A stretch of 64,000 nt of DNA from Flaccisagitta enflata (GCA_965153355.1 OZ231126.1:25668001-25732000); one strand, 5' to 3'. Counted from the stretch's first letter, positions 3,422 to 59,215 are shown. Translations and numbers: made by a program. Notes: generated from the sequence alone by a model not told the origin.

Positions 3422-3744
<323 letters not shown>

Positions 3745-29900: not shown

Positions 29901-30936
29901 ATGGCTGGCAAGAAAGGCGAAATTTGCTCAGTGAAAACGCACCAATTTTTTCCTTCCAACTTTTGCTTGGTGTTTGGTCAAAGTTCATCGGGTTTGTAGT
30001 TGGTCACGAAAAAAATGATAGTTTAAAAAATAGATAATGAAGTAAAGTTAATAAGTTATATAATAGTGAAAGTTAAATTTTGATTTGATTTTAAAGTTGG
30101 AGTATTTTTGTGTGGTTTTTTGGGTATTTAATGGGATGTAGATATTATAGTAATTGACAAAAAAATGTTTTTGAGTAAATTTTAAATATTTTGCTTTGCG
30201 TGCTTCTGAAGAAATACTGGTTACTAAATACTGAAGTTTTTATTGTAAGGTGTTGGACATTTTTTTTGTGACCATATAGTTTAAAGGAAAGACAAGTTGG
30301 CTTACTAATTTGCTAATTGAACGTGAATACCATTTTAAACAACGGATAAAGAAATTGATATTTTTCTACAAGGAAAGCTGTAAAAGTATAGAAAAACTGA
30401 AAAATAACGTGGCCAAGGAGAAGGGGTTGGAGACGATTTTCACAAAGAAGTTTCCCGAAAATTTTTTGGATTTTTGTAAACTGGAGCAAGATTCCAGTGT
30501 GATTGTGATCGACGATTTTTTTTGGGACGCTACTACTGATGAAACTGTGCGATCTGCGTTGATATCTCTAGCGAGCATATGGAATCATCATAAAGGCGCA
30601 ACAACGTTTCTCTGCTTACATTCGTACGACATATTTTTGAAAGCATCTAAATTGAATGTAATTCTCATGAACTCTTCTCATCTTATTTTCTTTAAGACTG
30701 CACACGACGCTCGCGCCGCTAAACGACTTATGGGACATTACATGCTGAATTTGAAAGGTGGACAGACCCTCTTTGACGTTTATAAGCGGCAAGTTTTGGA
30801 AAAAAATTTTTCTTACATCGTGGTTGCTCTTTCGCCGTTGAGTACGAAGCCATCGGTTTGGTCCCAAGTGTTGCTTGCAGAGGAGTGTCCGATGCTTTGT
30901 TTTAACGAATCGTCGTCGGATAGCGACGGGGAGTGA
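29901..30936 (+). CDS. A32/FtsK-like DNA packaging ATPase; exons 29901-29991 and 30287-30936 (~246 aa)
   Basis: Splicing the phase-1 intron 29992-30286 (GTTTGT...TTAAAG) restores Walker A LVFGQSSSGKT. Walker B is VIVIDD. WNHH and NSSHLIFFK resemble Polinton ATPase motifs. Confidence 0.9.
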
Positions 30937-30939
30937 CCG

Positions 30940-31269
30940 ATGGCCTGCCGGTCAAAGAAAAGATTAAAAAAGTTAGTAACTGTGTGCGTAGAGGACAAAT
31001 TATTTGACAAAAAATTGAAAAACAGCGTGTTTGAGTGCATTGTGGAAATTGTTAAAAATGCGTCAAAAAAGCGGCTTTCAAAGTGTTTCAGTTCAAAAAC
31101 AAAAAAAATGATGAGACGGAATAAAGACATTTTGTCGTATTTGAAAAATAAAAAAATTTCGATGAAAAGGAGAAAAAAACGGTTTTTGAAGTGTGATAAG
31201 AATGAGCAAGATTTGTTTGAATCCTACATAATCGCCGATTTTATGAAAAATTGTCTCAACCATGAGTGA
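30940..31269 (+). CDS. Small basic Polinton-type protein (109 aa)
   Basis: The pattern ECIVEIVKN...KKMMRRNKDILSYLKNKKISMKRRKKRFL resembles the conserved basic gene next to Polinton ATPases. It starts 3 nt after the ATPase stop and overlaps the next ATG. Confidence 0.6.
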   Translation: MACRSKKRLKKLVTVCVEDKLFDKKLKNSVFECIVEIVKNASKKRLSKCFSSKTKKMMRRNKDILSYLKNKKISMKRRKKRFLKCDKNEQDLFESYIIADFMKNCLNHE

Positions 31270-32326
31270 AAAACAAACGCCTTATCTTAAAACGCCGCAT
31301 GTGCTTAAAATTTTAAACAACGAATCCGTTTCTTGTGAAGAAAAACTTACGAATATTAAGAATTTGATTGACGGAAACAAGTTGACAATTGCGCCGTCTG
31401 GAGCGGAACTGCCGAGTGGTGCACAAAACACGGTGACTAGTTCGGCGCCGGTGATGACTCCAACTCAATCTGCAATTGAGAAAATTGAGGATGAGATAAA
31501 GGGAGGTAAAGAAAAACAATATGCATTGAGTCTGTTAAATGAAATAGACCGCAGTGACTACATCAGTTTTAACCCGGAGACCTTGGAAATAATTGTGGAT
31601 GGTGAAACCATAAAATTTTCCAACGTGAAAAACTTAGTACAGTATTGTATAAGCGCAGCTCCGTCGCAGATGCCATTAGCAATCGCAATTTTCATACAAT
31701 GTATGATTAGGATTAAAGTACCACATGAACTTTTGCGGCATGGTGATGCTCAGGCTCTCCGTGAATCCCTTATAAAGATAGATGAATTGAAGGGTAAAGG
31801 TTCGGCAAGTGAAGAAGTTGCACCACATGTTGTTGGTGATTCGGCATCAAGTGAAGTGGTGACGCCAGAGGGAAGTTCTGGTGAGAGAAGTGAATCAAGT
31901 GACCGTGGCAAAAAAAGGGCGTTGGAGGAGGATGAGAATGCAATTGACGAATCTGTGACACTAAACCCCGCGAAAAAATTGTATGGTTTGGAAAAGCCAT
32001 CTTTAGATAAGATTAGGACTAATCCAAAATTACGCGATGCCATTTCTGAAAAGTGGCATGATGTGATGACCAAGGCCACTCCCACGTCAAGGTCAAGGAA
32101 GCGAAAGGCGTCATTGGCGTTTCCAAAATCTGCGGAAGAAGAGGAAGATGAATGGTATGACGCCAAAAAGCCGGCCATCCCCACGTCGAAGTCGAGGAAG
32201 CGAAAGGCAGCGTTGGCATTTCCTGATTCTGTAGAGGAAGAAAGTGATAAATGGTATGATGCCAATAGGACGGCCAACCCCTCGTCGAGATCAAAGAAGC
32301 GGCAAGTGACACTTGATGTGCAGTGA
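31262..32326 (+). CDS. Polinton-type hypothetical protein (354 aa) with a C-terminal 33-aa duplication
   Basis: FNPETLEIIVDGETIKFSNVKNLV resembles the W/FN..GE...G..I.GSNI.DL motif of conserved Polinton ORFs. The ORF is intact. Confidence 0.65.
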   Translation: MSEKQTPYLKTPHVLKILNNESVSCEEKLTNIKNLIDGNKLTIAPSGAELPSGAQNTVTSSAPVMTPTQSAIEKIEDEIKGGKEKQYALSLLNEIDRSDYISFNPETLEIIVDGETIKFSNVKNLVQYCISAAPSQMPLAIAIFIQCMIRIKVPHELLRHGDAQALRESLIKIDELKGKGSASEEVAPHVVGDSASSEVVTPEGSSGERSESSDRGKKRALEEDENAIDESVTLNPAKKLYGLEKPSLDKIRTNPKLRDAISEKWHDVMTKATPTSRSRKRKASLAFPKSAEEEEDEWYDAKKPAIPTSKSRKRKAALAFPDSVEEESDKWYDANRTANPSSRSKKRQVTLDVQ

Positions 32327-32362
32327 TACGTTTTCTGTGAAGAGAAGTTAAAGTTGTGGAAG

Positions 32363-33535
32363 ATGCGAATTGAATCAAGGGAGGTTTTAAAAAGGGCGAT
32401 AAGCGGAAAGGGCTCGCCGTTATTCCTGTCCAAAAATGCAAATGACATTAGAGGATATTTGAAACGAAAAGGATTTGACATTGAAATCGGTGAAATAAAG
32501 GAATATTTGGCCGAGCAGAAAAGCGGCAGCGTGATTATAAAAAATAATAGTGAGAAATTGATAAGTGAGGTTTCTCGTCCATACATCCTCCCCCCATCAT
32601 TCTTTGAGTGGATAAATGTCGACTTGTGTGTTCTAAGTAGAAATCATGGCTACGGAAGGGGGAGCACGCGGTACATTATGGTTATTGTATGTGGATTGAG
32701 TCTTTTTACGTATTTTTCTGCTTGCCATGGAAAGGACAGCAATTCAATCATACGATGCTTCAAAAATGTGTTTGACCGAAGCAAGTACCTGCCAGAGAGA
32801 GCAAAGAAGCTGTTTAGCGATAAAGGTACGGAATGGACGGCAGGTGCAGTAAAAGACTTCCTACTTTCGAATGGAATAAGGTGTTATGCCCTGGAACCCA
32901 AAAGGTTGGAGAGAAAGGGAAGAGGTAATGTTTTTTGTGAGAATTCTATAAGATTGATGAGAGCGTACCTCCAGAGATATCAATTAGACGTGGGTAATGA
33001 TGTGTCATTTGCAAAAAAGTTGATTGAAATCGAAAAAGCCGTGAATTCAAAGGCCAGGTCAAGTTTGGGAGGAATATCGAGTGAGACTGCATTGACATAC
33101 GACCCAGTTCATATAAGAAACATCAAGGCCGGCAATAGATTTCGAAGGCGGAAATCTTTGAGAAAATACGTGGATAAACCAAAAAAACTTTCTCTATTTT
33201 CCATTGTAAAGGTCCGTCGGTATGGAAAGAAGGAGATTTTTGAGAAAGAATCTTACGGGACACTGTCAAGGAATTACTATTGTGTTATTGATGTTGTAAA
33301 TTATGGCATGGTTTATTATCATTTGCTCGGTTCGGTGTTTGATTTATCCCCTGTTAGTGATTCTAAATTTAGTTACGCGGAATTGCAGTTTTACGAGGAA
33401 TTATCTATTGCCAAAGCAAGATATCTGAATGTGTTACACAGTTCCGAGGTCGTTAGTCGTGACAATGTGTATATATATTTGAAGCCTGATTATTGTAAAG
33501 AAACGTTTTATGCTACTAAAAATGCTTTGGGGTGA
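32363..33535 (+). CDS. Retroviral-type (rve) DDE integrase (390 aa)
   Basis: INVD (32621), FSDKGTEW (32819) and FCENSIR (32939) give the D-D-E triad. The C-terminal IVKVRR..KEIFEKESY segment resembles Polinton integrases. Confidence 0.9.
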   Translation: MRIESREVLKRAISGKGSPLFLSKNANDIRGYLKRKGFDIEIGEIKEYLAEQKSGSVIIKNNSEKLISEVSRPYILPPSFFEWINVDLCVLSRNHGYGRGSTRYIMVIVCGLSLFTYFSACHGKDSNSIIRCFKNVFDRSKYLPERAKKLFSDKGTEWTAGAVKDFLLSNGIRCYALEPKRLERKGRGNVFCENSIRLMRAYLQRYQLDVGNDVSFAKKLIEIEKAVNSKARSSLGGISSETALTYDPVHIRNIKAGNRFRRRKSLRKYVDKPKKLSLFSIVKVRRYGKKEIFEKESYGTLSRNYYCVIDVVNYGMVYYHLLGSVFDLSPVSDSKFSYAELQFYEELSIAKARYLNVLHSSEVVSRDNVYIYLKPDYCKETFYATKNALG

Positions 33536-33643
33536 TGTTGATTACGATTTGTAAATAAGTGTTTTAATTTGTGTATTAGGTAATTGGAAAACTTGAAAGA
33601 GCGTGAAAAGTGTATAGACTTGTGTAAATCTGCATCAACGGAT

Positions 33644-34150
33644 ATGTCACCTGTGTTTAACGCGACTTGGGCCAATTTTGGTGCACCAAGTGGGATTGGA
33701 GGTGAAGTTGGGAATTTGACGGGAAGTGACGTCGATGATTTGGTGTGGAGTGGTGACGGAAGTTGGAACGTTACCCAAATGAACAGTAGTATCGGCGGTG
33801 ACATTGATTTGAGAGGCGGTGGAGACGGATATTGGTGGGAAGAGAAGGGAGAAGGCGACGACTTTCCTGTGGTGAAATTTGGACCGGATTTGACTTTTCT
33901 CGAACCGCTAGGAGTGTACATCAACTTGGCGTTGCTGGTTGTTGCGATTGTGCTGACGATTGGAGTTGTGTGTAGGTGTGTGGCGGGGAAGGTACGAGTC
34001 ACATTGGATAGGCGCCGTGGGGCGGAGATTGCGCTGCAGTTGGGATCGACGGGCGACGTAGTTGAACGCGTCGTGGTGACTGAAGCAGTTGGCCGACGGG
34101 AGAATGGCGTTGGAGACCGTCCAGGAAATCCACGTGGATTCGCGATCTAG
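33644..34150 (+). CDS. Single-pass membrane protein (~168 aa)
   Basis: Hydrophobic segment LGVYINLALLVVAIVLTIGVVC is followed by basic residues. Four N-x-S/T sequons precede it. Confidence 0.6.
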   Translation: MSPVFNATWANFGAPSGIGGEVGNLTGSDVDDLVWSGDGSWNVTQMNSSIGGDIDLRGGGDGYWWEEKGEGDDFPVVKFGPDLTFLEPLGVYINLALLVVAIVLTIGVVCRCVAGKVRVTLDRRRGAEIALQLGSTGDVVERVVVTEAVGRRENGVGDRPGNPRGFAI

Positions 34151-34961
34151 GGGATGTTATCAGAAACAGACAAGTAGTTTTCATATGAATTTACCTGGAA
34201 TAAACCTTCCCAAAGGTCGCGACCTTTTTGTGAATGTAAGTGATTTTACACTGCCCATTATTGAAAAGAATCTTTCATTTGTGATGTATTATGGTTTAGA
34301 CACTTTGAATATTGAAGAAGACGCTGTAAAGGAATATAATTTTGTATTTAGTAGCTTAAATCAATTTGCCACACAATTGCACTGTGCTGTTGTTAATGAT
34401 TTTATATATAAAAGCAAGTGTGTGGAAAAGGAGGGTGATTTAGTAGGTGGTGGGAGGAAAGATGATGTCGACAGCGTGTTTTATGTAAGATTTATGGATG
34501 GAATGTTCCAAATGCAGTTGGACGAAAATTGTGTGCTTTTTGCCTCGGATAATTTGTTTCAGTTTATGGCCTTTTATGATGAGGTTTATGATGCCAAGAA
34601 TGGGAGTAATAAGGAAAAAGTTTTGGCACCCGCTGGAAATACTGATTTCATGAAGGTATGTAAACGTTTAACATTTGGTGCACCAAAGAATTTTTTTAGT
34701 GATAGTGATAGGGTGTGCCATTTGGTAATTGACAACTGTTTGAGCCCCGTTGCATGTTTTGACGGTGGCAGATACAACGTGATATGTAGTTATGATTTGG
34801 AAAAGATGAAAATGGTATCGAATTATAGAAAATTTTTTTCTGATGGTTTAAGAAATATTAGTTTTTCTGTGTTGGATAATAATTTTAAGCCATTCGACTT
34901 TGGTTGTTGTTTGAAAAATCAATCGTTGCGTTTTGTATTAAATGTTGTTGCAAAAATTTAA
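34104..34961 (+). CDS. Minor capsid (penton) protein (285 aa)
   Basis: N-terminal IHVDS...QTSSFHMNLPGINL...VNVSDFTLP and C-terminal LRNISFSVLDNNFKPFDF match the Polinton single-jelly-roll penton pattern. Confidence 0.75.
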   Translation: MALETVQEIHVDSRSRGCYQKQTSSFHMNLPGINLPKGRDLFVNVSDFTLPIIEKNLSFVMYYGLDTLNIEEDAVKEYNFVFSSLNQFATQLHCAVVNDFIYKSKCVEKEGDLVGGGRKDDVDSVFYVRFMDGMFQMQLDENCVLFASDNLFQFMAFYDEVYDAKNGSNKEKVLAPAGNTDFMKVCKRLTFGAPKNFFSDSDRVCHLVIDNCLSPVACFDGGRYNVICSYDLEKMKMVSNYRKFFSDGLRNISFSVLDNNFKPFDFGCCLKNQSLRFVLNVVAKI

Positions 34962-34967
34962 TTACAG

Positions 34968-35429
34968 ATGGCCATTAGTAGTGAAGCGTTGATGGCAATT
35001 GCCGCTAGGATGCGTGGAAATTGTCAAAATTCTGTTGCGTCAACTACAAGGGAGAACAGTGCTGCGCTGGAGACATTTAAGGATGATTTGAAAACTGTAG
35101 AAAAGAATAAAAAAAAGGAAGAGAAGGAAGAGAAGAAGAAAAAGGCACCCACTGCGACAAAGAAGGCTGATGGGAAAAAGGGGGAAAAAAAGGAACCTGC
35201 GAAAAAAAAGAATGAAAGAAAGACTACTCCCAAGGAAAGTAAAAAGTTGAGTGAAAAAAAGGGGAAGAAGAGAAAAAAATTGAAAACTGCAAAAACTGCA
35301 AAAAAATCGCGAAAACATATGCCATTGGATGAATCTACCAGTAGCAGCAGCGACTCGTCAAGTGATGAATCGTCATCGTCTAGCTCGAGCAGTGACAGTG
35401 AGACGGATGAATCGAGCGAATCTGACTAA
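34968..35429 (+). CDS. Lys-rich protein with Ser/acidic tail (153 aa), possible DNA-binding core protein
   Basis: Intact ORF starting 6 nt after the penton stop. Function is inferred from composition only. Confidence 0.55.
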   Translation: MAISSEALMAIAARMRGNCQNSVASTTRENSAALETFKDDLKTVEKNKKKEEKEEKKKKAPTATKKADGKKGEKKEPAKKKNERKTTPKESKKLSEKKGKKRKKLKTAKTAKKSRKHMPLDESTSSSSDSSSDESSSSSSSSDSETDESSESD

Positions 35430-35537
35430 TGTGTATTATTGTGTACTGTGGTTATTGCACGTGCCTATTGTATAGATGATTGATATTTGTTAAATATGCA
35501 AATTATTTTACAGATTAAGATACAGTGAGAAAACAAA

Positions 35538-37055
35538 ATGCCTGGAAGAAAAGTGATCCACGTTCACGTTCGTGAATGTAGTTCCGATAAATGGTTCTGC
35601 AAAGCGTTGGAATGGTTGTCACGTGGATTGTGGCCCAGATTGGGACAAATCGATGCGGGGCTTAGGCGGGCGAAAAAATTTGTAAACAAATGTTCAAACG
35701 ATAAAATTCAAAGTTTGAATCTCGTTTGTGTGCCATTGAAAAAGAAGTCAATCACACCTCCAAGAATCGGCGTGTCGAAAACCGGTCAGATGGAGTGGAA
35801 GTACCCAGTAAACACCGAATCGGACGACCACGAGAACCAGTTGGCGCCCAGTTTGAACGTGGAATTAACGAGTGTCAGCGACGGCTTCGAGGCGGCGACG
35901 GACGCCCCCTCCACGATGCAGGCGTACGTGAAGGGAGCGGTGGAGGTGGGTAAGAAGTTGCACGATGAGATTGCGGGAGTGGTGAAGAGGAAGCGAGAGA
36001 TTGACATGGAGTGGAAGATGAAGATGGCAAAGTTGACGGTGAGGGAAGATGTCTATGGCGAATCCCGGCATATGGACTGGCACAGAGCGAGAATCAACGA
36101 GGAATACCACGATAAGGTGGAGGAGTGGAAGGAGGCGAAGAGAATTTGCCAGAGACATTACGAATGTTGGAGGGTGCAAGGGCAGATGGGCACACACAGT
36201 GGTATGGGCATTGCCTGTAGCTGCTCGAGGGACACTGTTGATGGGGGAAGCGACACTTCGAGCGATGAAGACGACGATGACAACGACGATAGTGATGACG
36301 ACGATAACGATGGTGGTAACAGCGGCGGCGGTGATAACGATAACGGCGACGATGTTGGAGATAACAGCAATAACGGGGAGAGTGATGGAGCTGGAAATCG
36401 CAACGGCGGCAACGGTGGTGACAACGACGGCGGTGACAGCGATGGTGGTGACAACGGCGGTGGTGACAGCAATGGTGGTGACAACGGCGGTGGTGACAGC
36501 AATGGTGGTGACAACGGCGGTGGTGACAGCGATGGTGGTGACAACGGCGGTGGTGACAGCAATGGTGGTGACAACGGCGGTGGTGACAGCAATGGTGGTG
36601 ACAACGGCGGCGATGACAACGACGGTGGTGACAAAGATGGCGGCAACAACGATGGTGGTGACAAAGACGGCGGCAACAACGATGGTGGTGGCAACGAAGT
36701 TGGAGATGGGGGTGACGGTGGAAAGGTAGGCGATGTGATTGTAAAGGTGGAGGTTCCGAGCGACGATGAGGGTGAATGCTGCGTAACAGAACTTTGCCCG
36801 AGGCGTATGAACAATATTTGGAAGTATCACGAGGAACGCGGGATTAGGCCGGGTGTAAACTGCAAATGCAGCACCTGCGTTATGATTGATTGGGTGAAGC
36901 CAAATAGCGACCAGGCAGGCGAAAAGGGCGAAAACGACGACGAAGATGTGAAGGTTTTCTCTGGTGGTGAGGATTGTGAATGCGGATGTGGCGAAACGAG
37001 TTCCTCTTGTGATGACGACGAAGACGGCAGCGAACCTGACATAATTTGGATGTGA
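35538..37055 (+). CDS. Hypothetical protein (505 aa) with G/D/N 10-aa repeat and Cys clusters
   Basis: Long ORF co-oriented with the element. A 30-bp repeat spans ~36410-36690. Confidence 0.6.
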   Translation: MPGRKVIHVHVRECSSDKWFCKALEWLSRGLWPRLGQIDAGLRRAKKFVNKCSNDKIQSLNLVCVPLKKKSITPPRIGVSKTGQMEWKYPVNTESDDHENQLAPSLNVELTSVSDGFEAATDAPSTMQAYVKGAVEVGKKLHDEIAGVVKRKREIDMEWKMKMAKLTVREDVYGESRHMDWHRARINEEYHDKVEEWKEAKRICQRHYECWRVQGQMGTHSGMGIACSCSRDTVDGGSDTSSDEDDDDNDDSDDDDNDGGNSGGGDNDNGDDVGDNSNNGESDGAGNRNGGNGGDNDGGDSDGGDNGGGDSNGGDNGGGDSNGGDNGGGDSDGGDNGGGDSNGGDNGGGDSNGGDNGGDDNDGGDKDGGNNDGGDKDGGNNDGGGNEVGDGGDGGKVGDVIVKVEVPSDDEGECCVTELCPRRMNNIWKYHEERGIRPGVNCKCSTCVMIDWVKPNSDQAGEKGENDDEDVKVFSGGEDCECGCGETSSSCDDDEDGSEPDIIWM

Positions 37056-37209
37056 GACAATGAATAGAAGTGCCGTGGAGTATTTTTTTGTGTTTATGCA
37101 GTGTAAATTGATTACAATAATACAATGAATATGCAATATTTTAACCTATGTTTGTTAGATTGATAATTGTTGAATTGATTTGCAGATATCATTTAGTTGG
37201 AAAAATAAC

Positions 37210-37878
37210 ATGGAGAATACCAAAGTGATTACCCCGGTGAAATGTGACAATCCTGGATGCGCCTGCACGAATTGCAGATGTTGTGTTAGAAAGAAACTAG
37301 AATCGACGGAAATGGGGGCAACGAGTGACGGACTGAGTAGCTTAATGTGGAATGCGGATGGTAGGGAGATGGAGATTGAGGTGGTGGAGTGTGCTAAGGT
37401 GAGGTGTGATGAAGATGACGTGAACGGAGTTGCTTTGGGCATTGCGGATGAAGAAGCTGAGTTGGAGAGGTGGTTGGGGGAATTGATGCTCGACGACGCG
37501 GAAGACAAGGATGTTAACGGTGGGTTGTCATGCATTGAAATGGACTCGCGTGTGCGTGACAACTCCGCCGATCAAAACGGGTCAACGGATCGCGAATTTG
37601 TGGACGCATCGTTGTTTACGCCGCCGGCGATCGGCGTTGGATTGGTGGTCGACAAAGGCGTGGACGCGTCGATGTTTACGCCGCTCGTGATCGACATTGG
37701 GCCAACGGTTGGCGAAGATGTGGAGGCACCGATGTCTACGCCACCCGCAATCGACATCCAGAGGACCGCGTGGGTGGAATACTACTGTGGACCGGTTAAA
37801 CCCGTTCTGTTGGCGGATTTTGGAGTGGATTGGAAATCGGTTACCAAGGAAGAGGTGGTGGAGATTAGCCCACTATAA
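37210..37878 (+). CDS. Acidic hypothetical protein with N-terminal Cys cluster; last codons replaced by a transposon insertion
   Basis: Starts MENTK with CDNPGCACTNCRCC. The stop lies inside the TIR of the 37868-40680 insertion. Confidence 0.55.
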   Translation: MENTKVITPVKCDNPGCACTNCRCCVRKKLESTEMGATSDGLSSLMWNADGREMEIEVVECAKVRCDEDDVNGVALGIADEEAELERWLGELMLDDAEDKDVNGGLSCIEMDSRVRDNSADQNGSTDREFVDASLFTPPAIGVGLVVDKGVDASMFTPLVIDIGPTVGEDVEAPMSTPPAIDIQRTAWVEYYCGPVKPVLLADFGVDWKSVTKEEVVEISPL

Positions 37879-40680: not shown

Positions 40681-40688
40681 TAGTGGAG

Positions 40689-44525: not shown

Positions 44526-44572
44526 TGATTTACCTGTATGATATTTTTGTTTCAGATACTGAATGATTAACA

Positions 44573-50445: not shown

Positions 50446-50498
<53 letters not shown>

Positions 50499-51112
50499 AT
50501 TTGGCAAGGTGCCCCATCGACTACGATTTGCGAAGGACGTTCCGGTCGGACACCATCCACCTCCTCTCTCCACCATTCGTCTTCTTCGCAAAGGCCGTAT
50601 TCCTCGCGGATATCGGCCTTTCTTTCATCGGAGAGGTCAACCCACTTTTCTCCCGGCGACAAAATGGGACATTGCAGCCTGGAACGATGGAGAAATGTGT
50701 GTTATTACTGTTGTGTGTGTAATGTGAATAAAATTGGCAACGGAATGATTTTTGTATAGTTTTAACAATTACATTTAATTAACTAATGTACAATGATGGT
50801 ATTTATTTATATACTAACTTGAGTAACCACAATCGATTTAGAAGGCAGGAAAGTTCTCCAGGATTCTCTGCAAACTCTTTGATGTCAAAGTTTGAAGAGC
50901 ATAGAATTGGGACATCGTGGGCGATGCTGCGGCCAGCGCCATGTTTGACGTTAATATCGCCACTGACGCCTTCAAACATAAGTTTGAGGTCGGACGGCTT
51001 GAGTTGCTTTGGTTCCATTTCGTCGCAGTGCGCAACATCTACGATGGGGTGGAGAGGGGCAGAAAGAAAGAAACAAGGTAGATAGAAGTAGTTAGAAAGA
51101 AGGTAACAATAA

Positions 51113-51162
<50 letters not shown>

Positions 51163-52005
51163 GCAACAACAAGCACAACAGTTAGTTCCAAATCTACGCT
51201 AACAACAGAGTTCAGTTTGTAAGTTCAGAGTTTCGCGACTCGCATTTCATCGGTTTATCTGTCAACAACAACAACTATCATGAACAGTAACAATAACAGT
51301 TACAAATAGGGACTCACCAGTCGTGAAATACACGTTTTGTAGGTAGAAATTTCTCGACGATAAAGACACGAGGGCTTTCTGTATCGCCGGTGTGAGGATG
51401 GATAGTAGAAGAGACTTTCCGTATTGCTTGGCCCGCTCACGAAGAATCTTTGAAAGACAGAGAAAAAGACAGAAAGGATAGAAAAAAGGATAGAAAAAAA
51501 ATTAACTAAAACATTTAAGGAGGAGAAATATGGGTTAAAACGTGGAAAATAGAGGCAAATTGAATAACCAATAGATAATAAATGGGAAATTGTATGAGTA
51601 AAAGGAGAATATACATACCCACATCTCTTGGTGTGACTGTCAAGTTGCTGCATCTTTGCCTTGGCCTGTTTGGCGGGATCTTTGCGGTCTTTGATGCGCT
51701 GCTTGGCCAATTCAATCGCGGCGCGGAGACGAGCTGCCTTTTCTGCGGGTGTTTCCGATCGAACGTCATCGGCGCCAATGGCGCCATTAGAACCTACAGA
51801 TGGCGCTGCATGTGGGGTGCGGTCGCCGCGAACAACGCCCGCGTGTCCGGCGTTTGCAGATTCATGGTTGTTTTCGATGTCATCTTCGTCGGAATCCTCG
51901 CTTGCGTCAGTATCGCCACCTTCGACGTCATCATTGGCGGCATTGGGTGCCTCTTTGTGTTGGTCGACGTCAGACCCATCGGATGCGTCGTCGTCGTCGT
52001 CGTCG

Positions 52006-52043
<38 letters not shown>

Positions 52044-55000
52044 TGGTTCGGGTTCCGGCTCCGGCATGGATTCTTCCATGATGATTTTTCGTTTGATACT
52101 GAAGGTCAGGATGTAGTTTAGGACGGCGAGGATCGCCCTTGGATCTCCACCATTAGTCGACAATAAATGCGCCAGCTGCAAAAAAAAAAGGTGATTGTAA
52201 ATGTAATTGTGGTCAGCGGTACCCGTCACCCATTTATAAATTTTCCGAATGAATACAAACAAACACCATCGTTCAACATTACATGCACACATTTTACCCA
52301 TTGGGCCATGTCGTCGTAGACGTTATTTTCTCTCTCGTATGACCCCAGCTCCTTGATCATTTCGTCGGTCGCTCCTTCGTCTTTAGCCGCTTGGATGATG
52401 GCATCCCAATCTGCCTTATCTTCCTGGATCATCCGCTTGTATTCTTCAATTTGCGGTTTGTAACTGAAAAAAAGAGAATGTTAGTAAACAAAACATTAAT
52501 AATATTAACCAAATGGATTGAAAGAAATCTACGTTAAAACTATGACTAATAAAAATAATTGAACCATGTTAATTTAAATGACCATCTTACTTACTATTCA
52601 ACCATGCGAATTATAAAGGATTTTTCTCTGGCCTCCTTTTGCTTTTGCTCCATGTAAATGTCGAAAATTTCTCGTTGAACCGATTCACTGCAACCCTTTA
52701 AGTAGACCGACAAGCCAAGTCGCAATTCCATGTCCATGCTTTGTCTAAGAAAATGGAAGTAACATTTGAATTACAACTAAGTGAGGGGGGGGGGTGTGAG
52801 TGAAGCCCCACACGTTCCACTTAAATTTATCACCTCCAAGATTAATGCCTGTTGTAAAACTAACCTGAACTCCTCGAATGACTGTGGATTTGATCTCTGC
52901 GGATTTGATCTCTTCATGAGTTGGATGAGCACTTGTCGCTGGTCCCAATCGTTTTGCATTGATTCCGAGCATTCGCATTCCCCAATGTCTAAGTGAGCGA
53001 AAAAAAATGTATGGGGTTGAGGGTACACAGAAATTGTACACATATAGAATTTTTAATCGCGTGTACGCGACCATCGCGTGTACGCGACCATAAGTCATTT
53101 TTAGGTATAATGAACCATTTTAGGCGATTCTAAGTAATTCTAAGTCATTCTAAGCAATTTTAAGTAATTCTAAATCATTTTAAGTCATTCTAAGTTATTC
53201 TAAATCATTCTAATTATTTTAAATCATTCCAAGTAATTGTAAGTTATTCTAAGTCATTCTAGGTCATTCTAAGTTGTTCTAAGTAATCCTAAATTATTTT
53301 AAATTATTCTAAGTTGCTTTAAATCTTCCTATGTTATTCTATTCATTCTTACATACACAACCAACCTAGGAATTTTAGACGATCAGGGGCTTTCAACGAT
53401 GGGTCAAGAAATTCCATTGATGGGCGTCCCTTTTTGCCCTCTCCCTTTGATGGCATGGGATTTGCATCTACCATGGATTGGCGTTTCGTCTCATCGTCCA
53501 AAAACACGTCGAAGCAGCTCACAGCTGGCTTATTTTCGTCCGGCATCTGATGAAACTGAGAGGCGAAGAGCAGTAATTATGTATTAAAGTTGCACATGTT
53601 AGTGAATGCATGCATATAGAATGACAATGAAGCTGCATAGTATATAAATACCAACCTGTAGCAAATATTCAAGTAGGGGTGGTGCCACTCTTCCCTTAGC
53701 CTCTTTATCGTTGCCGCGCTTGTTGTTGATGTCGATGCAATAATCAATCCTCTTTTGTTGCACATGTTCTTCGGTGGGACAGCATATTGACTGTGTGAAT
53801 AATTTTGTAAAATGCTATCACAAAGTATTTATAACATTGGAGTATTCGATACTGTGGCATCACCATAGCATCACAATAGCATCACACTGGCATCACATTG
53901 GCATTGCAGTAACAACATAGTAGCAGCGCAGTGGCAACGCAATAGCATCACAATAGCATCACAGTGACATTATAATAGCATCACATTAACATCACATTAG
54001 CACCACAGTAGCAACACAGTAGTAGTATTGCAGTGGCATCACAGTAGCATTACATTAGCACCGCCGTAGCATTAACTCACCTCGTAGTCACATGGTTTTG
54101 ACAGTGCAGCTGCAATTTTCGCGTAACCCCACTTGTTTGCCAGTGAGGTAAGAGCACCACTCCTCCTCAACACCTCGTCAAAAACCCTTTCGTGTGCTGT
54201 GTTTGACCAACCTTTGGGTTTTTTGTCTCCCGCGATTTTCTGTGTATTTGAGAGGAAATGATTAAATCGGGAATGGGTATGTATAAAAAGGCCATAGAAA
54301 TCCCAATATCTCTTAAAATCATTTAAATTGAAAAACTCTCTCCTCTAACCTTCAAAAACAGCTCGATGTCTGATCGCCATCTGTGTCCGTAGGAACTGAG
54401 AGAAAAAAATAGTTGAAAATGTAAGATGGTTAATGTTACCCATGGCATGTGGATAAAGACAAGGTTGAGAGTGGGGTAGCGACCCCAACACAAATAGAAA
54501 TGTGGAAAGAGTGAGAGAGAGAGGAGAGGGGGGAAAGGAGTGAGGGAAGGAAAGAGGGGAGAGGGATAGAAGGGGGGGGAGAGAGAAAGAGGCAAAGGGA
54601 CAAAGAGACAAAGAGACAGAGAGAGAGGCAGAGAGATAGAGAGAGAGAGAGAGGGAGAGAGAGAGAGATACAGTGCGTGAAATGTTCCATATCCTCGTCA
54701 TTCATCCCGGCTTCGTCTCCGTCCTCCCTGAGAGAAATAGTAAATGCGCAATGTAAACGAGTAAAAATGGATGGCCGCGTATACCATTAACAGCAGTTAT
54801 ACAGAAAGTATATACTTACTTGAACCTGTAGTGGTGACTGTACCAAGCATCACACTTCTTATCTCTAGCGTCCAGGTACTTCATCTTGAACTCGATACTG
54901 GTAAGACCGCTGTTCAAGCGCTTGATGTCTCTGGAAGTGAAAGAGGATGTAGATTTGATAACGGATAAATCTAAAGTAATTATCAACTGTAGTAGTTGAA

Positions 55001-55678
55001 ATCGAATTCTACACACATACATATTCATAGTTACCTAATAAACAAGAGGATGTGTAGCCAAGTGGGTTGATTAACCCCCATCTTCTTTTGGGATTCCCGC
55101 AGTTCGGCAATTTCCTCCGCTTTATCTTCCATGCCCTTTATTAACGGAATTCCGTCTATGACCGCGACGGTAGACATGTTGGGGGCGGTTACGACCACGC
55201 CCTCCATGTTGCTTTCTTTGGAGGCGGCCTCGAAGTCGGCGGACAAATTGCGTCGCGGATGTGGGATTTCGGTAGATACCTCGTCTTTATTTGTTGGCAC
55301 CATCGATTCATTTGGTATTGGCGACGCACGTGGAGAACGCGGTGATGGTGGCGTCGCCGCGCCACCCGGTGTTAACAGCCCACTTTGCTCGTCTGGTGTT
55401 GGCGATCTCCTCGAGTCATCGGATGCGCACGGGGATGCAGGCGACGAAGGACGAGGAGGAGGCGTTGGCGGAGGAGGAAGTGGTGCCGGGGGAGGAGGAA
55501 GAGGTTCACGATTGGCCTCATCGTCGGAGGAGTCCGACGGAACAAATTCCTTCGATTTATACTGTTCTTCCTTTTTGTCTTTTTTCTTGTGACGTTTGTC
55601 TTTATTTTCTTTTTTTTTACTCTTCTTTTTTTCACCCTCACTTGATTTGGATTTATGTTTTTTCTTTTCTTCAGCCAT
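49774..55678 (-). CDS. NS1/E1-like Rep: SF3 helicase with candidate N-terminal HUH domain; 15 exons (55678-55035, 54930-54820, 54727-54440, 54395-54350, 54239-54081, 53790-53656, 53546-53366, 52988-52865, 52744-52595, 52463-52298, 52175-51619, 51447-51318, 51038-50819, 50678-50079, 50005-49774); 1-nt frameshift in Walker A; ~1247 aa if repaired
   Basis: All junctions are GT-AG and phase-consistent. Motifs: KRCGFFVSGPSNT/GKS (A), SSRNFYLQN, VAHCDE (B), LKLMFEG..INVKHG (B'), ILCSSN (C), LLNRL (Arg finger). Confidence 0.8.
53115..53340. repeat. 10-bp (taagtcattc)n array inside a Rep intron
   Basis: Visible directly in the sequence. Confidence 0.85.
53855..54070. repeat. 11-bp (agcatcacagt)n array inside a Rep intron
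   Basis: Visible directly in the sequence. Confidence 0.8.
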
Positions 55679-55780
55679 ACTCAACTCCAAATCACAAATG
55701 TATTAGTTCTGTAATAAATCATGAATGAATATATAGTCAAAATCAGCATTTTTTTTTTACCGGCGACGCATAGAAAAATT

Positions 55781-56029
55781 GGGCCGAAGTTAGTTATAGC
55801 AGTCTCCCTATATAATTTGACTCGGCCACCTCTCTTTACAGGGATGGTTAAAGTAGAGTGGCTAAGGTAGGGTGGCTTTAATTGAGAAGAGGTGGAAATA
55901 TTACATTAATTTTGGAGTTAAAAATTAGTTAGTAATAACAAAATTTTATGAAAGGTGGCTAAATAACCCCTACTGCCAACCCAATTACCCTTGGTAATTT
56001 TTAGGAGACTGCTATAACTAACTCGATCC
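55781..56029. mobile_element. 249-bp MITE
   Basis: Perfect 20-bp inverted repeat agttagttatagcagtctcc (55788-55807 / 56004-56023). Flanked by the direct repeat AAAAATT. Confidence 0.75.
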
Positions 56030-56231
56030 AAAAATTGATTTACAACAATTAAATGATTATCAAGACGTAGCGAATTCCCAATTTAACACATGAACGGCAG
56101 CAAATGTACATTGAAGTGTCCTTTGACGTCACACGGCCACGATCCACGTCTTTATTCTGATATATTTTAATAAGGATGGGTGGTGGTTGATGGGAGGGGT
56201 GGGGATGGGAATAGAAAGAGTCGCGATGGGA

Positions 56232-59215
56232 TTAAATTTCATCGTAGTGTGTGAGCAGCAATGAGACGAGTAATGTGTTGTAGTTGGGGTGTGAGTCATA
56301 CAAATGGCGATTGAAAACAGAGACATTCAACTCCTTGGCAGAATGATATACTTTAATGTGCTGGTAAAACTCTAGGGCGCTTCTTTGGACAATATTACAT
56401 TTCTTACATTGAATGCCATTTTCAAAAGATTTCTTAACTTCAACTGCCATGTGGGTAAAAATATCTAAAAATTTCAATTTTATACCACACAGGTAACACA
56501 CTACATCGTGGTTTTCTTCCCTGAAATGGGATATAATGTCCTCATACATGCCCTTGCCATATACAAAACGTGTGTCACACTGTGAACATTGCTTATCCAC
56601 TCCAATAGAGACAACGTTCTGCCTGACAAAGTCACAACTTCCGGTGAGAATATGGTCTCTTGGAGTGAGCGATTTAGATTTTCCTGGGAATGGTGTGAAA
56701 CAATAACAGCAAATTTTCTTACTCAATCTACTTGGCAGTCCGTGCACTGTATCCTTACTTTTCTTGATGGAAGTGGGCGCCTTTTTGACGATGGGCAGGT
56801 CATTGGATTTGAGCCCTATGTCCAAATTTGGCATTTTTGGCGACTTGTACTCGAATTCACCGTTGGATTTCCGCTTTGATGGTGATTTTCCCGCCCCACT
56901 TTTCTGCGTCATCGACGATGTGGATTGAGGCGCAGATTTTTGGGCGACTGTCGCGATTTTGTCGCCCACACTCACACTTGATGAAAAGGGACGCGTTGTG
57001 GTATTCGATGACGGCTTTTGTGGCGCAGATTGGCGGGATGATGATGCAGATTTGCCGTTAATCTTCCCGGTCAATGATGGTTGGGCATTTTCCTTTCCAT
57101 TTGATGACTGATTAGAGGATTTACTTGGAGAAGATGCATTTGGGTCCATAAGTGGCGCCGCTTTATTTGTTTCCTTGCCAAGCACTTTGCCATATTTATC
57201 AGTCAATAGCACCTGCTTTTTGGCGTTGGGATCGGGAATTAGTGGATCCTTGGGAGTGAAAACCGATTTATTCGCGGGATTTCCGGCTTGACTGCGTTTC
57301 AAATCGCTCATTCTCACGCCATTTTTGGGTCCCAGGCGCAACGCAGGGGCGCCATTTCTCGATAAATTGACGTCACCTTCATCCGCGAAGGCTTTGGAAT
57401 ACAGAGATTTAGTAGGAGAAAATGCGTCTTCATTTGATGCGGAATCAACTGGCGCCTCATCCGGTTTCATCATATCTTGCAAGACAGCTGCGGCTTCGTT
57501 ACCTTCTTTAATCCAACCTGCTTCATTTGCCACCTTCCCTTTTTCATTATGCGCCCCTTCCTCTTCATCATCACTCTCTCCCCCGCCTCCAGCCTCCTCC
57601 TTGTCATCTTCCTCCTCCCTATCCTCCTCCTTGTCATCGTCCTCCTCTCCAGCCTCCCCCTTGTCATCGCCCTCCTCCCCATCCTCCTCCTTGTCATCGT
57701 CCTCCTCCCCAGCCTCCCCCTTGTCACCGTCCTCGTCCCTATCCTCCTCCTTGTCATCGTCCTCTTCCCCATCCTCACCCTTCCCTTTATTTTCATCGCC
57801 ATTCCCTTCCTCATCCTCACTCTCTCTCTCTACATCTCCATTTTCGTCATTAACACCTTCCATTTCGTCTGCCACGTCATTATTCCCCGTTTTACTCGCT
57901 GCGTCATCATGTACTTCGTCTCTCTCGGCGCCATTCGTATCGTCGCTTTCCTTGCGATTTATCAAGTCCATTAAGGCATTCTCAGATAGTTGACTTCCGC
58001 CACTCTCTTCAGTCGACGATTGATTTTTTGGTTTGGCCGCTTGTTTTTCGCATGTGGGCTTCTTATGCTTTTGGGTCATGTCAGAGATGGCATCCTCCGG
58101 TATCTCCTCCTCATCATCGCTGAAGGGGTCGGTAATTAATCCATCATCGGCATCATCATCAGCAGGAAACACTGCACGGTCAAACGGCGCCCCTTCATGC
58201 GACGCAGATGCCATTGGGAAGGCGACTCGCTTACTCGTTGACTTTTGCAATCCCACTTTCTTCGTACAATCAATTACCACTCCACCACTTTGCGACAATG
58301 AGTTGGAGATGTTATCGGTGCATTCAACCGTGACCATAGTCGGAGATGATGTTTTTTCCTCGACGGTGGCGTTGGTGGCGTCCACATTGGCGTCGACATT
58401 GACGTCATCGTCGACGTCGTCACGCCTTTCCTCTCTGTCGCTCAAGTTTGCATTGTCCATGTTAGGGGATCCACTAGTGTTTTCGACGACGGCATCAGCT
58501 TTATTGGGCGACTTGGGATTGTCCACAACATTGGTGGATGCGTTAATTGCGCCATCTGCATCACTAGAGACCAATGCGTTGTCGAAGGCAGCGCCGACGG
58601 TGGCGTAGGATTTGACGGCTTCACCGGGAGTAGGTTTGTTGAAGGGTAAGTAGCGGTCGACAAGGGCTTCCAACTTCGGGATGTCGCATTCCTTAAGACT
58701 TCCTTCAACATCTTCGACATCCTTTTCCTCTCGACGGGCCGCTTCTTCCGCCTCCAAAGCGCGGATTTTTTCTTCTAATCCGTCGAACATTTTTTCGTCG
58801 ATTTTTCGAACCGATTGTGGAATACTCGGCTCTTCATCATCGCAGTTGGGATCGAGGAGCGCAGATATAATTTTGGTTATCTCTGTTGCCATTTTACGCA
58901 TATTGTTTTCGTTGAGTTCAGCCTTTCCTTGGTCGATGTCGTACATCAACTTCGCCTCCTTTATTAGAAAAAAAAAAGGACAATAATACATGAACCCTGA
59001 GATGGCGACAAATTTCATTGGTATATACTATGCCACACCATAGCAAATAAACAACCCCAACTTACCCGGCACGCCTGGCTAAATGACAGCCCCTCCGATT
59101 TTGCCGTGAGAATCAACTTTTCCATCATATTCTTGTAAGGCGCCCTCAACGATTCCCTTTTTTCTCCCTGGGCAACCTGAATTGCGCGCCACTCCTTTTG
59201 CTTGCTAACACACAT
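56232..59215 (-). CDS. Large acidic/disordered protein with C-terminal C2H2-type zinc fingers; exons 59215-59066 and 58958-56232 (5' end uncertain)
   Basis: Phase-0 intron CGG|gtaagt...taaag|GAG. Fingers: CCYC...H...C, CSQC...HFREENH, CYLC...H, CKKC...HIKVYH. Confidence 0.75.

What the first reader, a model, noticed from the sequence alone, without database searches (positions are those of the whole stretch)
29901..59215. Intron-rich Polinton-like virus combining a capsid/integrase/pPolB module with a parvovirus NS1-like Rep
Seen: packaging ATPase, DDE integrase, penton, major capsid and pPolB on the + strand, converging on a - strand SF3 helicase gene and a zinc-finger gene. At least 23 phase-consistent GT-AG introns occur across four genes. 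Established: animal Polintons/Mavericks are typically 15-20 kb with essentially intronless core genes and an adenain protease; pairing pPolB with an NS1-type SF3 helicase is characteristic of bidnaviruses. Inference: this is a large (>26 kb without nested insertions), chimeric, spliced lineage of integrating dsDNA virus that ORF-based searches would largely miss.
Basis: partly seen in the sequence, partly recalled or inferred. Interest (0 to 1): 0.95.

Follow-up and report, generated by a model that had tools for sequence, protein, structure and literature searches.

The report
Spliced Maverick-like provirus beside Rep helicase
An integrated virus of the Maverick/adintovirus kind, with capsid genes interrupted by ordinary introns, lies beside a virus-type replication helicase gene in a marine organism's genome; whether the two form one element is unresolved, and that question is what would make it important.

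Summary
On the + strand lie:
- a packaging-ATPase gene whose P-loop is restored only by removing a 295-nt GT..AG intron;
- a weak rve integrase (Pfam E=7e-5, below cut-off);
- a multi-exon capsid gene whose last exon folds as a viral double-jelly-roll, with best hits to a bracovirus (Maverick-type) protein, an adintovirus capsid and a MELD virus protein;
- an intronless 1313-aa protein with PolB-like motifs, called a PolB only by a language-model look-up.

On the - strand lie an intron-rich SF3 helicase gene and a 931-aa zinc-finger ORF. The helicase's nearest look-alikes are CRESS-virus Reps; parvovirus NS1 ranks lower.

One capsid intron position is conserved in three divergent relatives. 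No spliced RNA was seen, and the only RNA-library contigs run unspliced across two predicted introns.

Capsid exon and PolB co-occur on contigs in at least six related lineages. Linkage of the helicase to the element is not shown, and no convincing terminal repeats were found.

This copy carries a nested 2.8-kb insertion and a frame break in the helicase P-loop. Closest known are adintoviruses/Mavericks, a clam adomavirus (Rep + zinc-finger + adintovirus-like virion genes), and introner-bearing polinton-like proviruses.

Verdict: partly supported. New variant of a known kind; interest moderate to high.

The parts
29901..30936 (+). Packaging ATPase gene (FtsK/A32-like by motifs). Exon 1 is 29901-29991, the intron 29992-30286, exon 2 is 30287-30936.
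   Evidence: Removing the GT..AG segment joins 'GQSSSG' to 'KTSW', which makes a Walker A. Walker B is 'VIVIDDF'. No Pfam or PHROG hit. My automatic splice model chose a different, wrong donor here.
31259..32326 (+). ORF of about 355 aa, function unknown, with three C-terminal basic repeats. One in-frame stop separates it from the integrase ORF.
   Evidence: only a chance-level PAXIP1_C hit, E=0.033.
32363..33535 (+). rve-type (DDE) integrase, intronless.
   Evidence: Pfam PF00665 E=7.1e-5, 23.5 bits, below the 32.6 cut-off. D..D..E residues read by eye. No PDB sequence hit at E<=1.
33584..34150 (+). Small ORF with N-glycosylation-type motifs and one hydrophobic segment (membrane-protein-like).
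   Evidence: read by eye. No Pfam hit.
34110..34961 (+). Candidate penton / minor capsid protein (283 aa).
   Evidence: Position and length only. No Pfam or PHROG hit. Not folded.
34962..37055 (+). Two ORFs: a lysine-rich/serine-rich 155-aa protein (34962-35429) and a 508-aa protein with a long G/D/N repeat (35529-37055).
   Evidence: 15-nt tandem repeat at 36319-36768. No Pfam hit.
37174..41018 (+). ORF interrupted by a nested insertion (pieces 37174-37878 and 40683-41018).
   Evidence: The pieces flank the nested element exactly. The X2 DNA contig starts to match at 40683, the first base after the right arm, and runs on for about 1.3 kb that does not match the insertion (table 8, record 9).
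37866..40682 (.). Nested non-autonomous element with 422-nt terminal inverted repeats, 92% complementary.
   Evidence: I1. Depth 2596-5654 in X2 against 15-25 for the genes around it.
41232..41930 (+). ORF with a linker-histone-like C-terminus.
   Evidence: Pfam PF00538 E=0.093, 13.4 bits, below cut-off. A lead only.
42065..44525 (+). Major capsid protein gene. Modelled exons: 42065-42322, 42488-42653, 42745-42800, 42892-42949, 43059-43155, 43259-43372, 43469-43691, 43911-44525.
   Evidence: Splice model scores 80.3 against controls of at most 32.8. Last exon: 8 relatives at 57-94% identity. AF2 pLDDT 59, pTM 0.58. BFVD best hit R9XLG5 E=1.5e-4, then an adintovirus capsid at 1.9e-3. In VIA, 11 of the 12 best rows are double-jelly-roll-lineage capsid proteins, Z 4.9-7.6.
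44573..44749 (+). Small arginine-rich ORF after the capsid gene, conserved in a relative.
   Evidence: In relative P0073 the reading frame runs on from the capsid C-terminus into the homologous 'KVKR.AKGR..SCLKK' sequence.
45349..49275 (+). Intronless 1308-aa putative protein-primed PolB with an OTU-like N-terminal motif, one C2H2 finger and a roughly 240-aa insert between motifs A and B.
   Evidence: 12 full-length relatives at 51-99% identity. Invariant residues D694..Y699, K1068-N1072-G1076, T1166-D1167 and KxY at 1214-1216 (motif definitions recalled). Atlas PF03175 look-alikes at 0.92. All sequence and fold tests for PolB were negative or uninformative.
49774..55678 (-). Intron-rich Rep-class SF3 helicase gene with about a dozen introns. 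Its Walker A exon (51447-51318) has a frame break near 51421. The B/B'/C exon is 51038 to about 50820.
   Evidence: Relatives P0050-P0052 and P0056-P0058; in P0052 and P0058 the P-loop is read in one frame. Atlas: 24 of 30 hits are CRESS-virus Rep clusters, top 0.96. An HUH nuclease domain was not established.
56232..59027 (-). 931-aa ORF with C2H2-type zinc-finger patterns at the C-terminus and a long acidic middle.
   Evidence: read by eye. No Pfam hit.
26990..28271 (.). Tandem array of a 163-nt unit on the left flank, related to 59205-59306 (inverted) and 59769-59963 (direct).
   Evidence: identity between the flanks is 72-82%. My back-calculation from the last depth bin implies depth of the order of 1800 at 59205-59299 in X2, so this is a dispersed family. 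That makes it weak as a terminal repeat.

Best explanation
The region holds an integrated dsDNA virus genome of the Maverick/Polinton (adintovirus-like) kind.

Inferred workings, from what these gene families do elsewhere:
- A protein-primed PolB copies the linear genome.
- An rve integrase inserts it into the host chromosome.
- A double-jelly-roll major capsid protein, a probable penton and an FtsK-type ATPase build and fill the particle.
- Basic and histone-like proteins condense the DNA.

What is unusual: the ATPase and capsid genes can only be read after removal of short GT..AG introns. They would therefore have to be transcribed in the nucleus and spliced by the host.

The two - strand genes are virus-derived: a Rep-class SF3 helicase with about a dozen introns, and a zinc-finger protein. 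I take them as most likely the element's early, replication-accessory module. That membership is inferred, not shown.

This particular copy looks inactive. It has a nested 2.8-kb insertion in one ORF, a frame break in the helicase P-loop, and no poly(A) RNA reads in the sample examined.
For: - Capsid. The fold of the last exon hits a bracovirus (Maverick-type) protein at E=1.5e-4, an adintovirus capsid at 1.9e-3 and a MELD virus protein at 2.4e-3. In the wide PDB scan, 11 of the 12 best rows are double-jelly-roll-lineage capsid proteins.
- Integrase. rve E=7.1e-5.
- PolB. Atlas look-alikes with PF03175, 15 of 30 at 0.92. Motif order A-B-C-KxY is invariant in 13 sequences. hhalign's best local match to PRD1 polymerase places K1068..G1076 on PRD1's 'KLILNSSYG', though without significance.
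- Linkage of capsid and PolB in relatives.
- Introns. The ATPase P-loop is rebuilt across an intron. The splice model scores well above controls. In P0045, P0046 and P0047, homology to the capsid exon starts at the same column, directly after an AG. The helicase intron after '..YFTTG' sits at the same place in P0052 and P0058.
- Helicase. Walker A, B, B' and C appear in order. Atlas gives CRESS Rep at 0.96.
- One unit. The PolB and helicase stop codons lie 500 nt apart and converge. X2 depth is even (15-25) over the genes of both strands. A described clam adomavirus also combines Rep, a zinc-finger gene, a histone-like gene, a packaging ATPase and adintovirus-like virion genes (PMC11071296, section 14).
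Against: - No Pfam, PHROG, PDB-sequence or hhalign support for PolB, ATPase, penton, capsid or helicase.
- The PolB fold model is poor (pLDDT 48) and gave only generic RNase-H-like matches.
- No terminal inverted repeats. The only inverted similarity is a 72-82% satellite-like repeat.
- No protease was found.
- Helicase relatives were found in only two lineages and only on contigs of 683-2662 nt, so linkage to PolB is untested.
- RNA. The poly(A) run X20 gave 19 partial reads out of 12.2 million records, 18 of them at only 90-95% likeness. The metatranscriptome contigs X9 and X14 (one sample) lie colinear and unspliced over 43041-43400 and 43534-44380, crossing two modelled introns. No GT..AG joint was seen.
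- Even depth also fits single-copy host DNA.
Confidence: 0.5

Rival explanations
1. Two unrelated neighbours. A Maverick/adintovirus-like provirus of ordinary size (about 29.9-49.3 kb, or 16.6 kb without the nested insertion) lies next to an older, independently endogenised Rep gene of CRESS or parvovirus type and a zinc-finger gene. Both of these have since evolved as resident nuclear genes.
For: - Without the - strand genes the element has the usual 15-20 kb size.
- The helicase gene looks host-like: 6 kb, about a dozen introns, and long acidic and basic low-complexity exons.
- Helicase relatives were found in 2 lineages, against at least 8 for PolB and capsid.
- No shared terminal repeats.
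Against: - No terminal repeat or other boundary was found at 49.3-49.8 kb either: 0 inverted 12-mers.
- The capsid gene is just as intron-rich as the helicase gene.
- The search for helicase relatives was limited to an 82-aa exon.
- The same gene set occurs together in a described adomavirus (PMC11071296, section 14).
Confidence: 0.38
2. A fixed, vertically inherited viral fossil or domesticated gene cluster. The whole block is an old endogenous element that no longer moves, the introns were gained during residence in the genome, and the related 'lineages' are orthologues in related host species.
For: - Single-copy-like, even depth.
- Conserved intron positions.
- A lineage-specific extra intron in the helicase exon of P0051, P0052 and P0057.
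- No RNA of a virus-like level.
- No terminal repeats.
Against: - A 1300-aa PolB frame is kept open in all 12 relatives down to 51% identity, and capsid exons are kept open too. This indicates selection on replication and virion functions.
- The window copy differs from a 99%-identical metagenome copy by a nested insertion and a frame break, as expected of individual copies decaying.
Confidence: 0.1
3. Not a real feature: chance ORFs and chance splice sites in a repeat-rich region.
For: Most family-level searches were empty. The flanks are satellites.
Against: - Twelve full-length relatives of the 1313-aa ORF.
- Eight relatives of the capsid exon.
- The capsid fold.
- Controls for the splice model.
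Confidence: 0.02

Closest known systems
Adintoviruses / Mavericks (Polintons) of animals (Starrett et al. 2021, PMC8502044, passages; Buck et al. preprint, PMC11071296, passages)
   Same: PolB plus rve integrase plus double-jelly-roll capsid plus packaging ATPase in one cluster. An OTU-like motif at the PolB N-terminus (seen by eye). The capsid fold is nearest to a bracovirus-borne Maverick-type protein and an adintovirus capsid.
   Different: Seven modelled introns in the capsid gene and one in the ATPase P-loop. No protease found. No terminal repeats found. Sequences too divergent for Pfam. A possible extra Rep-class helicase and zinc-finger module on the other strand.
Adomavirus tegillarca5526, the clam 'AdintPa' adomavirus (PMC11071296, section 14, read in full)
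   Same: A Rep-class SF3 helicase, a zinc-finger regulator (Ziftr), a histone-like gene and a packaging ATPase, together with adintovirus-like virion proteins.
   Different: Adomaviruses are described there without PolB or integrase. Its Rep is of the papillomavirus E1 class, whereas the nearest look-alikes here are CRESS Reps. I did not compare sequences, because none was available to the tools.
Bidnaviridae (Krupovic & Koonin 2014, PMC4061559, abstract)
   Same: A Polinton-type PolB alongside a Rep-lineage SF3 helicase. The abstract proposes an ancestor formed when a parvovirus integrated into a Polinton.
   Different: Bidnaviruses are small ssDNA viruses with a parvovirus single-jelly-roll capsid and no integrase. 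Here the capsid is double-jelly-roll and the element is an integrated block of about 29 kb. NS1 affinity is only a weak lead (rank 19, 0.89).
Mavirus and those Polintons that encode an S3H (Yutin et al. 2013, PMC3671162, passages)
   Same: PolB, rve integrase, capsid genes and an SF3 helicase in one element.
   Different: Those helicases are of the NCLDV- or phage-related kind according to that paper. Here the look-alikes are Rep-associated helicases of ssDNA viruses.
Introner-bearing eupolintoviral proviruses of dinoflagellates (Gozashti & Corbett-Detig 2025, PMC12166617, abstract and passages)
   Same: Polinton-like proviruses with intron-type insertions, some in coding regions.
   Different: Introners are recognisable repeat families, mostly gained after integration. 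The 19 introns I compared share no similarity with each other or with the rest of the window, and at least one position is conserved between lineages at 59-65% protein identity.

Membership tests
Polinton/Maverick (adintovirus-like) | [quoted passage not shown] | tested here: inconclusive
   For: Atlas, 15 of 30 nearest clusters carry PF03175 at 0.92; invariant motif order A, B, C, KxY (motif definitions recalled). Against: 0 of 13 members hit PF03175, no PDB hit, hhalign probability 0.1-0.2%, fold model pLDDT 48.
Polinton/Maverick (adintovirus-like) | Retrovirus-like (rve) integrase | tested here: inconclusive
   PF00665 E=7.1e-5, 23.5 bits, below the 32.6 cut-off. No PDB sequence hit. The C-terminal chromodomain was not tested.
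Polinton/Maverick (adintovirus-like) | Double-jelly-roll major capsid protein | tested here: met
   Last exon only (204 aa; pLDDT 59). BFVD E=1.5e-4, with adintovirus capsid and MELD virus rows next. In VIA, 11 of the 12 best rows are capsid proteins of this lineage, Z 4.9-7.6.
Polinton/Maverick (adintovirus-like) | Penton (single jelly-roll minor capsid protein) | not tested
   ORF 34110-34961 is a candidate by position only. There were no structure jobs left.
Polinton/Maverick (adintovirus-like) | FtsK/A32-type packaging ATPase | tested here: inconclusive
   Walker A (across the intron) and Walker B seen by eye. No Pfam or PHROG hit.
Polinton/Maverick (adintovirus-like) | Adenain-like cysteine protease | tested here: inconclusive
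   No hit in Pfam scans of all three + frames. Those scans also missed genes that are present, so absence is not shown.
Polinton/Maverick (adintovirus-like) | Terminal inverted repeats and target-site duplication | tested here: inconclusive
   Only a 72-82% similar satellite-type repeat lies on both flanks. No inverted 12-mer falls at 49.3-49.8 kb.
Adintoviruses (definition quoted in PMC11071296) | [quoted passage not shown] | tested here: inconclusive
   An invariant 'C..W.ALS' motif (C231, W233, A235, S237) and H360 in 13 sequences resemble the OTU signature as I recall it. No Pfam OTU hit.
Bidnaviridae | Parvovirus NS1-type SF3 helicase | tested here: inconclusive
   Parvo_NS1 cluster at rank 19, 0.89. 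CRESS Rep clusters rank first, 0.93-0.96.
Bidnaviridae | Parvovirus-type single-jelly-roll capsid; small ssDNA genome | tested here: not met
   The capsid is of the double-jelly-roll class. The block is about 29 kb and integrated.
Adomaviruses | Rep-class SF3 replicase with adenovirus- or adintovirus-like virion genes | tested here: inconclusive
   Both gene kinds are present, but it is not shown that they belong to one genome.
Adomaviruses | No PolB and no integrase (as described in PMC11071296) | tested here: not met
   A PolB-like ORF and an rve-like ORF are present.
HUH-Rep proteins of CRESS viruses and parvoviruses | SF3 helicase motifs A, B, B' and C in order | tested here: met
   Read directly: 'GPSNT[break]GKS', 'CDEM', 'K..EG....INVKHG' and 'ILCSSN'. 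Relatives P0052 and P0058 carry the unbroken P-loop.
HUH-Rep proteins of CRESS viruses and parvoviruses | N-terminal HUH endonuclease domain (motifs I-III) | tested here: inconclusive
   Candidate 'IHTHS' and 'GYAK' strings in the 54344-54075 ORF seen by eye only. No Pfam hit. One candidate motif I turned out to be an intron's pyrimidine tract.

The most novel reading that the evidence does not exclude
This is one living lineage of Maverick/adintovirus-type viruses of marine organisms. It has carried spliceosomal introns inside its capsid and ATPase genes through long divergence. In a single genome it holds both the PolB-integrase module and a Rep-class SF3 helicase with a zinc-finger regulator. 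That would make it the kind of intermediate postulated for the origin of bidnaviruses (a Rep-bearing genome inside a Polinton) and of adomaviruses with adintovirus-like virions.
Probability: 0.3. Interest if true: 0.85.

Novelty: new variant of a known kind. Interest (0 to 1): 0.6.

Why it matters
- Origin of two virus groups. If the helicase and zinc-finger genes belong to the element, it joins the two replication systems whose recombination is invoked for the origin of bidnaviruses (PMC4061559, abstract). It would also link adintoviruses to the clam-type adomavirus (PMC11071296, section 14). That would turn a scenario into something testable with sequence trees.
- Introns in a virus capsid gene. 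Apart from that, a capsid gene with about seven introns, at least one kept in place across lineages at 59-65% identity, would mean a virus-like element has long depended on host splicing for its structural genes.
- Detection. It also shows that ORF-based and Pfam-based screens miss such elements: almost every family search here came back empty.

Tried and rejected
SEARCHES THAT FOUND NOTHING USEFUL
- Whole-genome search: no genome is held for this window.
- Earlier findings of this scan: nothing by place, sequence or words.
- Related loci: IMG/VR and JGI metagenomes searched with PolB, capsid and helicase alignments, none confirmed.
- Pfam on stop-as-X frame translations of both strands: nothing useful, and it even lost the rve hit.
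- PHROGs: nothing.

PolB
- The 914-aa fold has pLDDT 48. Foldseek against PDB gave 0 hits at E<=0.001.
- VIA gave only generic RNase-H-like matches (residues 28-231, best Z 8.9, Pelota) and PD-(D/E)xK-like matches (residues 336-545, Z 6-7). No PolB chain is listed; with so poor a model this says nothing either way.
- hhalign against the phi29 and PRD1 polymerases was not significant.

HELICASE EXON
- The full HMMER scan of 1.84 billion representatives gave 3 true fragments and 3 spurious repeat or ankyrin proteins.
- PDB sequence and profile searches were empty.
- The word-index search found only P0050.

OTHER TESTS
- Introner test: 19 modelled introns share no similarity with each other or with the rest of the window. 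Three of the 19 coordinate pairs were slightly off.
- Terminal repeats. The flank repeat is rejected as firm evidence because identity is low and depth in X2 is high.
- My splice model mis-placed the ATPase donor and the helicase 3' end. I corrected these by eye.
- A candidate HUH motif I ('FTISL') was rejected because it lies in an acceptor pyrimidine tract.
- RNA joints at 40982>55455 and 43252>55601 (X2) and at 55773>56033 (X9) were rejected as splice evidence: the ends are not GT..AG and the matches are short or low-complexity.

LITERATURE
- Searches found no paper describing PolB, integrase, double-jelly-roll capsid and a Rep-class S3H in one element.
- Supplements were not visible. The contig catalogues of PMC11071296 and PMC8502044 could hold such a genome.

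Full report
WHAT IS THERE

The window is eukaryotic DNA and no genome is held for it. Its first 29 kb are mostly tandem repeats, and I saw no ordinary host gene on either flank. Between 29.9 and 59.2 kb lies a compact set of ORFs.

+ STRAND GENES

- ATPase. An ATG at 29901 opens an exon that ends in 'GQSSSG'. The 218-codon ORF at 30280-30936 begins '..KGKTSW' and contains 'VIVIDDF'. Removing 29992-30286 (GT..AG, phase 1) makes a Walker A, 'GQSSSGKT'. Neither Pfam nor PHROGs recognises the protein.
- Integrase. ORF 32327-33535 gives Pfam rve at E=7.1e-5, 23.5 bits, below the curated 32.6. It has no PDB sequence hit.
- Candidate penton. ORF 34110-34961 is a candidate only by its place. I could not test it.
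- Other ORFs that follow: a lysine-rich protein, a repeat-rich 508-aa protein, and an ORF cut by a nested element. That element has 422-nt inverted arms (37866-40682) and a depth of 2600-5650 in a marine metagenome, against 15-25 for its surroundings. Last comes an ORF with a sub-threshold linker-histone match (E=0.093).

CAPSID GENE

- Splice model. A simple splice-aware model, trained on the intronless ORFs of the region, gives 8 exons and 7 GT..AG introns of 91-219 nt, for 529 codons and a score of 80.3. Controls: reverse complement 3.5; 20 shuffles, mean 18.6 and maximum 32.8; ten control stretches, 4.4-26.3. The part upstream of the last exon, which was not in the training set, still scores 52.4.
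- Relatives of the last exon (43911-44522). There are eight, at 57-94% identity. In the three that extend upstream (P0045, P0046, P0047), homology begins at the same column, directly after an AG, and the upstream parts are unrelated to the window. That intron position is therefore old.
- Fold. Folded with this alignment, the exon gives pLDDT 59 and pTM 0.58.
  - In BFVD the best match is a Cotesia bracovirus protein (E=1.5e-4, probability 1.00). My recollection is that bracoviruses carry captured Mavericks.
  - Next come a Drosophila-associated adintovirus capsid (1.9e-3) and a MELD virus protein (2.4e-3). Pithovirus, cedratvirus and virophage capsids follow.
  - In the wide PDB scan, 11 of the 12 best rows are capsid or capsid-scaffold proteins of the double-jelly-roll lineage: poxvirus D13-type, adenovirus hexon, EhV, PBCV-1, Sputnik, ASFV p72, faustovirus, mavirus, SGIV and phiCjT23. 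Z is 4.9-7.6, which is middling taken alone.

THE 1313-AA ORF (PUTATIVE PolB)

- It is intronless and has 12 full-length relatives at 51-99% identity.
- Invariant residues fall in the order expected of PolB motifs A, B, C and KxY: D694..Y699, K1068-N1072-G1076, T1166-D1167 and K1214-x-Y. The motif definitions are recalled from memory.
- The N-terminus has an OTU-like 'C.W.ALS' string. A C2H2 finger follows.
- The Atlas puts PF03175-bearing eukaryotic clusters of 1300-1470 aa next to it (15 of 30, 0.92, 196-201 shared features).
- Every alignment-based test failed:
  - Pfam on all 13 members;
  - PDB by sequence and by profile;
  - hhalign against the phi29 and PRD1 polymerases, probability 0.1-0.2%. 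Its best local match did put our motif B on PRD1's.
- The 914-residue model is poor (pLDDT 48) and gave only generic RNase-H-like and PD-(D/E)xK-like matches.
- I accept PolB as likely but not proven.

- STRAND GENES

- Helicase motifs. A gene runs from an ATG at 55678 to a stop at 49774. 'RFFVSGPSNT' and 'GKSLLLSIL..YFTTG' lie in two frames of one exon (51447-51318), so the frame breaks inside the P-loop near 51421. A GTGAGT donor follows. The next exon starts after a long pyrimidine tract at 51038 and carries 'VAHCDEM', 'KLMFEGVSGDINVKHG' and 'ILCSSN'.
- The frame break. Relatives P0052 and P0058 read the P-loop in one frame. The marine metagenome contig X2 shows a one-letter length difference from the window at that very place (table 4). 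The break may therefore be private to this copy or to its assembly.
- Intron count. Model and eye together give about a dozen introns.
- Family.
  - A full HMMER scan with the 82-aa exon found only three fragments of relatives (67-91% identity) and three spurious repeat proteins.
  - PDB searches were empty.
  - The Atlas gives CRESS-virus Rep clusters for 24 of 30 hits (0.93-0.96). A cluster in which 30% of members carry PF00910 comes at rank 6, and Parvo_NS1 at rank 19 (0.89).
  - The helicase is therefore of the Rep-associated class; 'NS1-like' is not its best label.
  - An HUH domain could not be established.
- Zinc-finger ORF. Upstream on the same strand lies a 931-aa ORF with C2H2-type patterns. 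Pfam finds nothing in it.

RELATIVES AND LINKAGE

- IMG/VR and JGI metagenomes hold no relatives.
I read that as the same contigs, so the capsid-PolB order is conserved.
- Helicase fragments sit only on contigs of 683-2662 nt, so their linkage is untested. Assemblies break at the microsatellite between PolB and the helicase, as X2 does at 50127.
- In one lineage (P0051, P0052, P0057) the helicase exon has an extra intron-like break after 'HDVPV' that the window lacks.

ENDS

- No inverted repeat brackets either 29.9-49.3 kb or 29.9-59.2 kb, with one exception.
- The exception is a 163-nt unit. It forms a tandem array at 26990-28271, and recurs inverted at 59205-59306 and direct at 59769-59963, at 72-82% identity.
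- My back-calculation from the last depth bin puts the depth there at roughly 1800, about 100 times that of the genes. It is a dispersed family and weak evidence for termini.

EXPRESSION

- About 6% of a poly(A) RNA run of the source organism was read: 19 partial reads, 18 of them at 90-95% likeness.
- Metatranscriptome contigs from one sample cover only 43041-43400 and 43534-44380. They are colinear with the DNA across two modelled introns.
- No GT..AG joint was seen.
- This speaks against efficient splicing in that sample, or the contigs reflect precursor RNA or DNA. It does not test the host.

COMPARISON WITH WHAT IS KNOWN

- PolB with an S3H, an integrase and capsid genes occurs in Mavirus and some Polintons (PMC3671162, passages).
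- Rep-class helicases with adenovirus- or adintovirus-like virion genes define adomaviruses. One clam adomavirus adds zinc-finger, histone-like and packaging-ATPase genes (PMC11071296, section 14).
- PolB with an NS1 helicase defines bidnaviruses, for which integration of a parvovirus into a Polinton was proposed (PMC4061559, abstract).
- Introners in polinton-like proviruses are described in dinoflagellates (PMC12166617). The introns here share no repeat family.
- My searches found no description of all these parts in one element. Supplements were closed.

VERDICT

- The + strand cluster is a divergent, intron-bearing Maverick/adintovirus-like provirus. I put this part at about 0.85.
- That the Rep-class helicase and zinc-finger genes belong to it is plausible but unproven, at about 0.5.
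- It is a new variant of a known kind, not a new kind.

Noticed in passing
window 37866-40682: Nested element with 422-nt inverted arms (92% complementary) and internal 21-nt tandem repeats. Its depth in a marine metagenome is 100-250 times that of the surrounding genes. The X2 contig starts to match exactly at 40683 and runs on without matching the insertion, which suggests that sample has an empty site.
   Followed up: partly
window 47540-48170 (PolB residues about 736-945): The Cys/His-rich insert between PolB-like motifs A and B gave PD-(D/E)xK nuclease-like fold matches (Vsr, Hjc, AF1548; Z 6-7). The model is of low confidence.
   Followed up: no
P0051, P0052, P0057 versus window 50815-51038 (-): A related lineage has an extra intron-like break after 'HDVPV' inside the helicase exon, where the window reads through. 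This is intron gain or loss between lineages at about 70% identity.
   Followed up: partly
P0073 versus window 44520-44749: In one relative the reading frame runs on past the capsid C-terminus into the homologue of the small arginine-rich ORF. That supports the small ORF being a conserved gene.
   Followed up: no
window 43041-44380: RNA-library contigs from a marine metatranscriptome cover only this part of the 20 kb laid, and they are unspliced. PolB, the helicase and most of the rest have no cover; the exceptions are repeats and low-complexity stretches.
   Followed up: partly
window 33584-34150: ORF with several N-x-S/T sites, a hydrophobic segment and a basic tail, like a small type I membrane glycoprotein. 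It lies between the integrase and the candidate penton.
   Followed up: no
window 1-29000: A dense series of unrelated tandem repeats (periods 12, 46, 51, 9, 27 and 163 nt) and GA/CA microsatellites. The element sits in a satellite-rich region.
   Followed up: no
window 52640-53306: A 10-nt-period repeat inside a helicase intron has a depth of about 60,000 in the metagenome and about 1000 in the RNA library.
   Followed up: no
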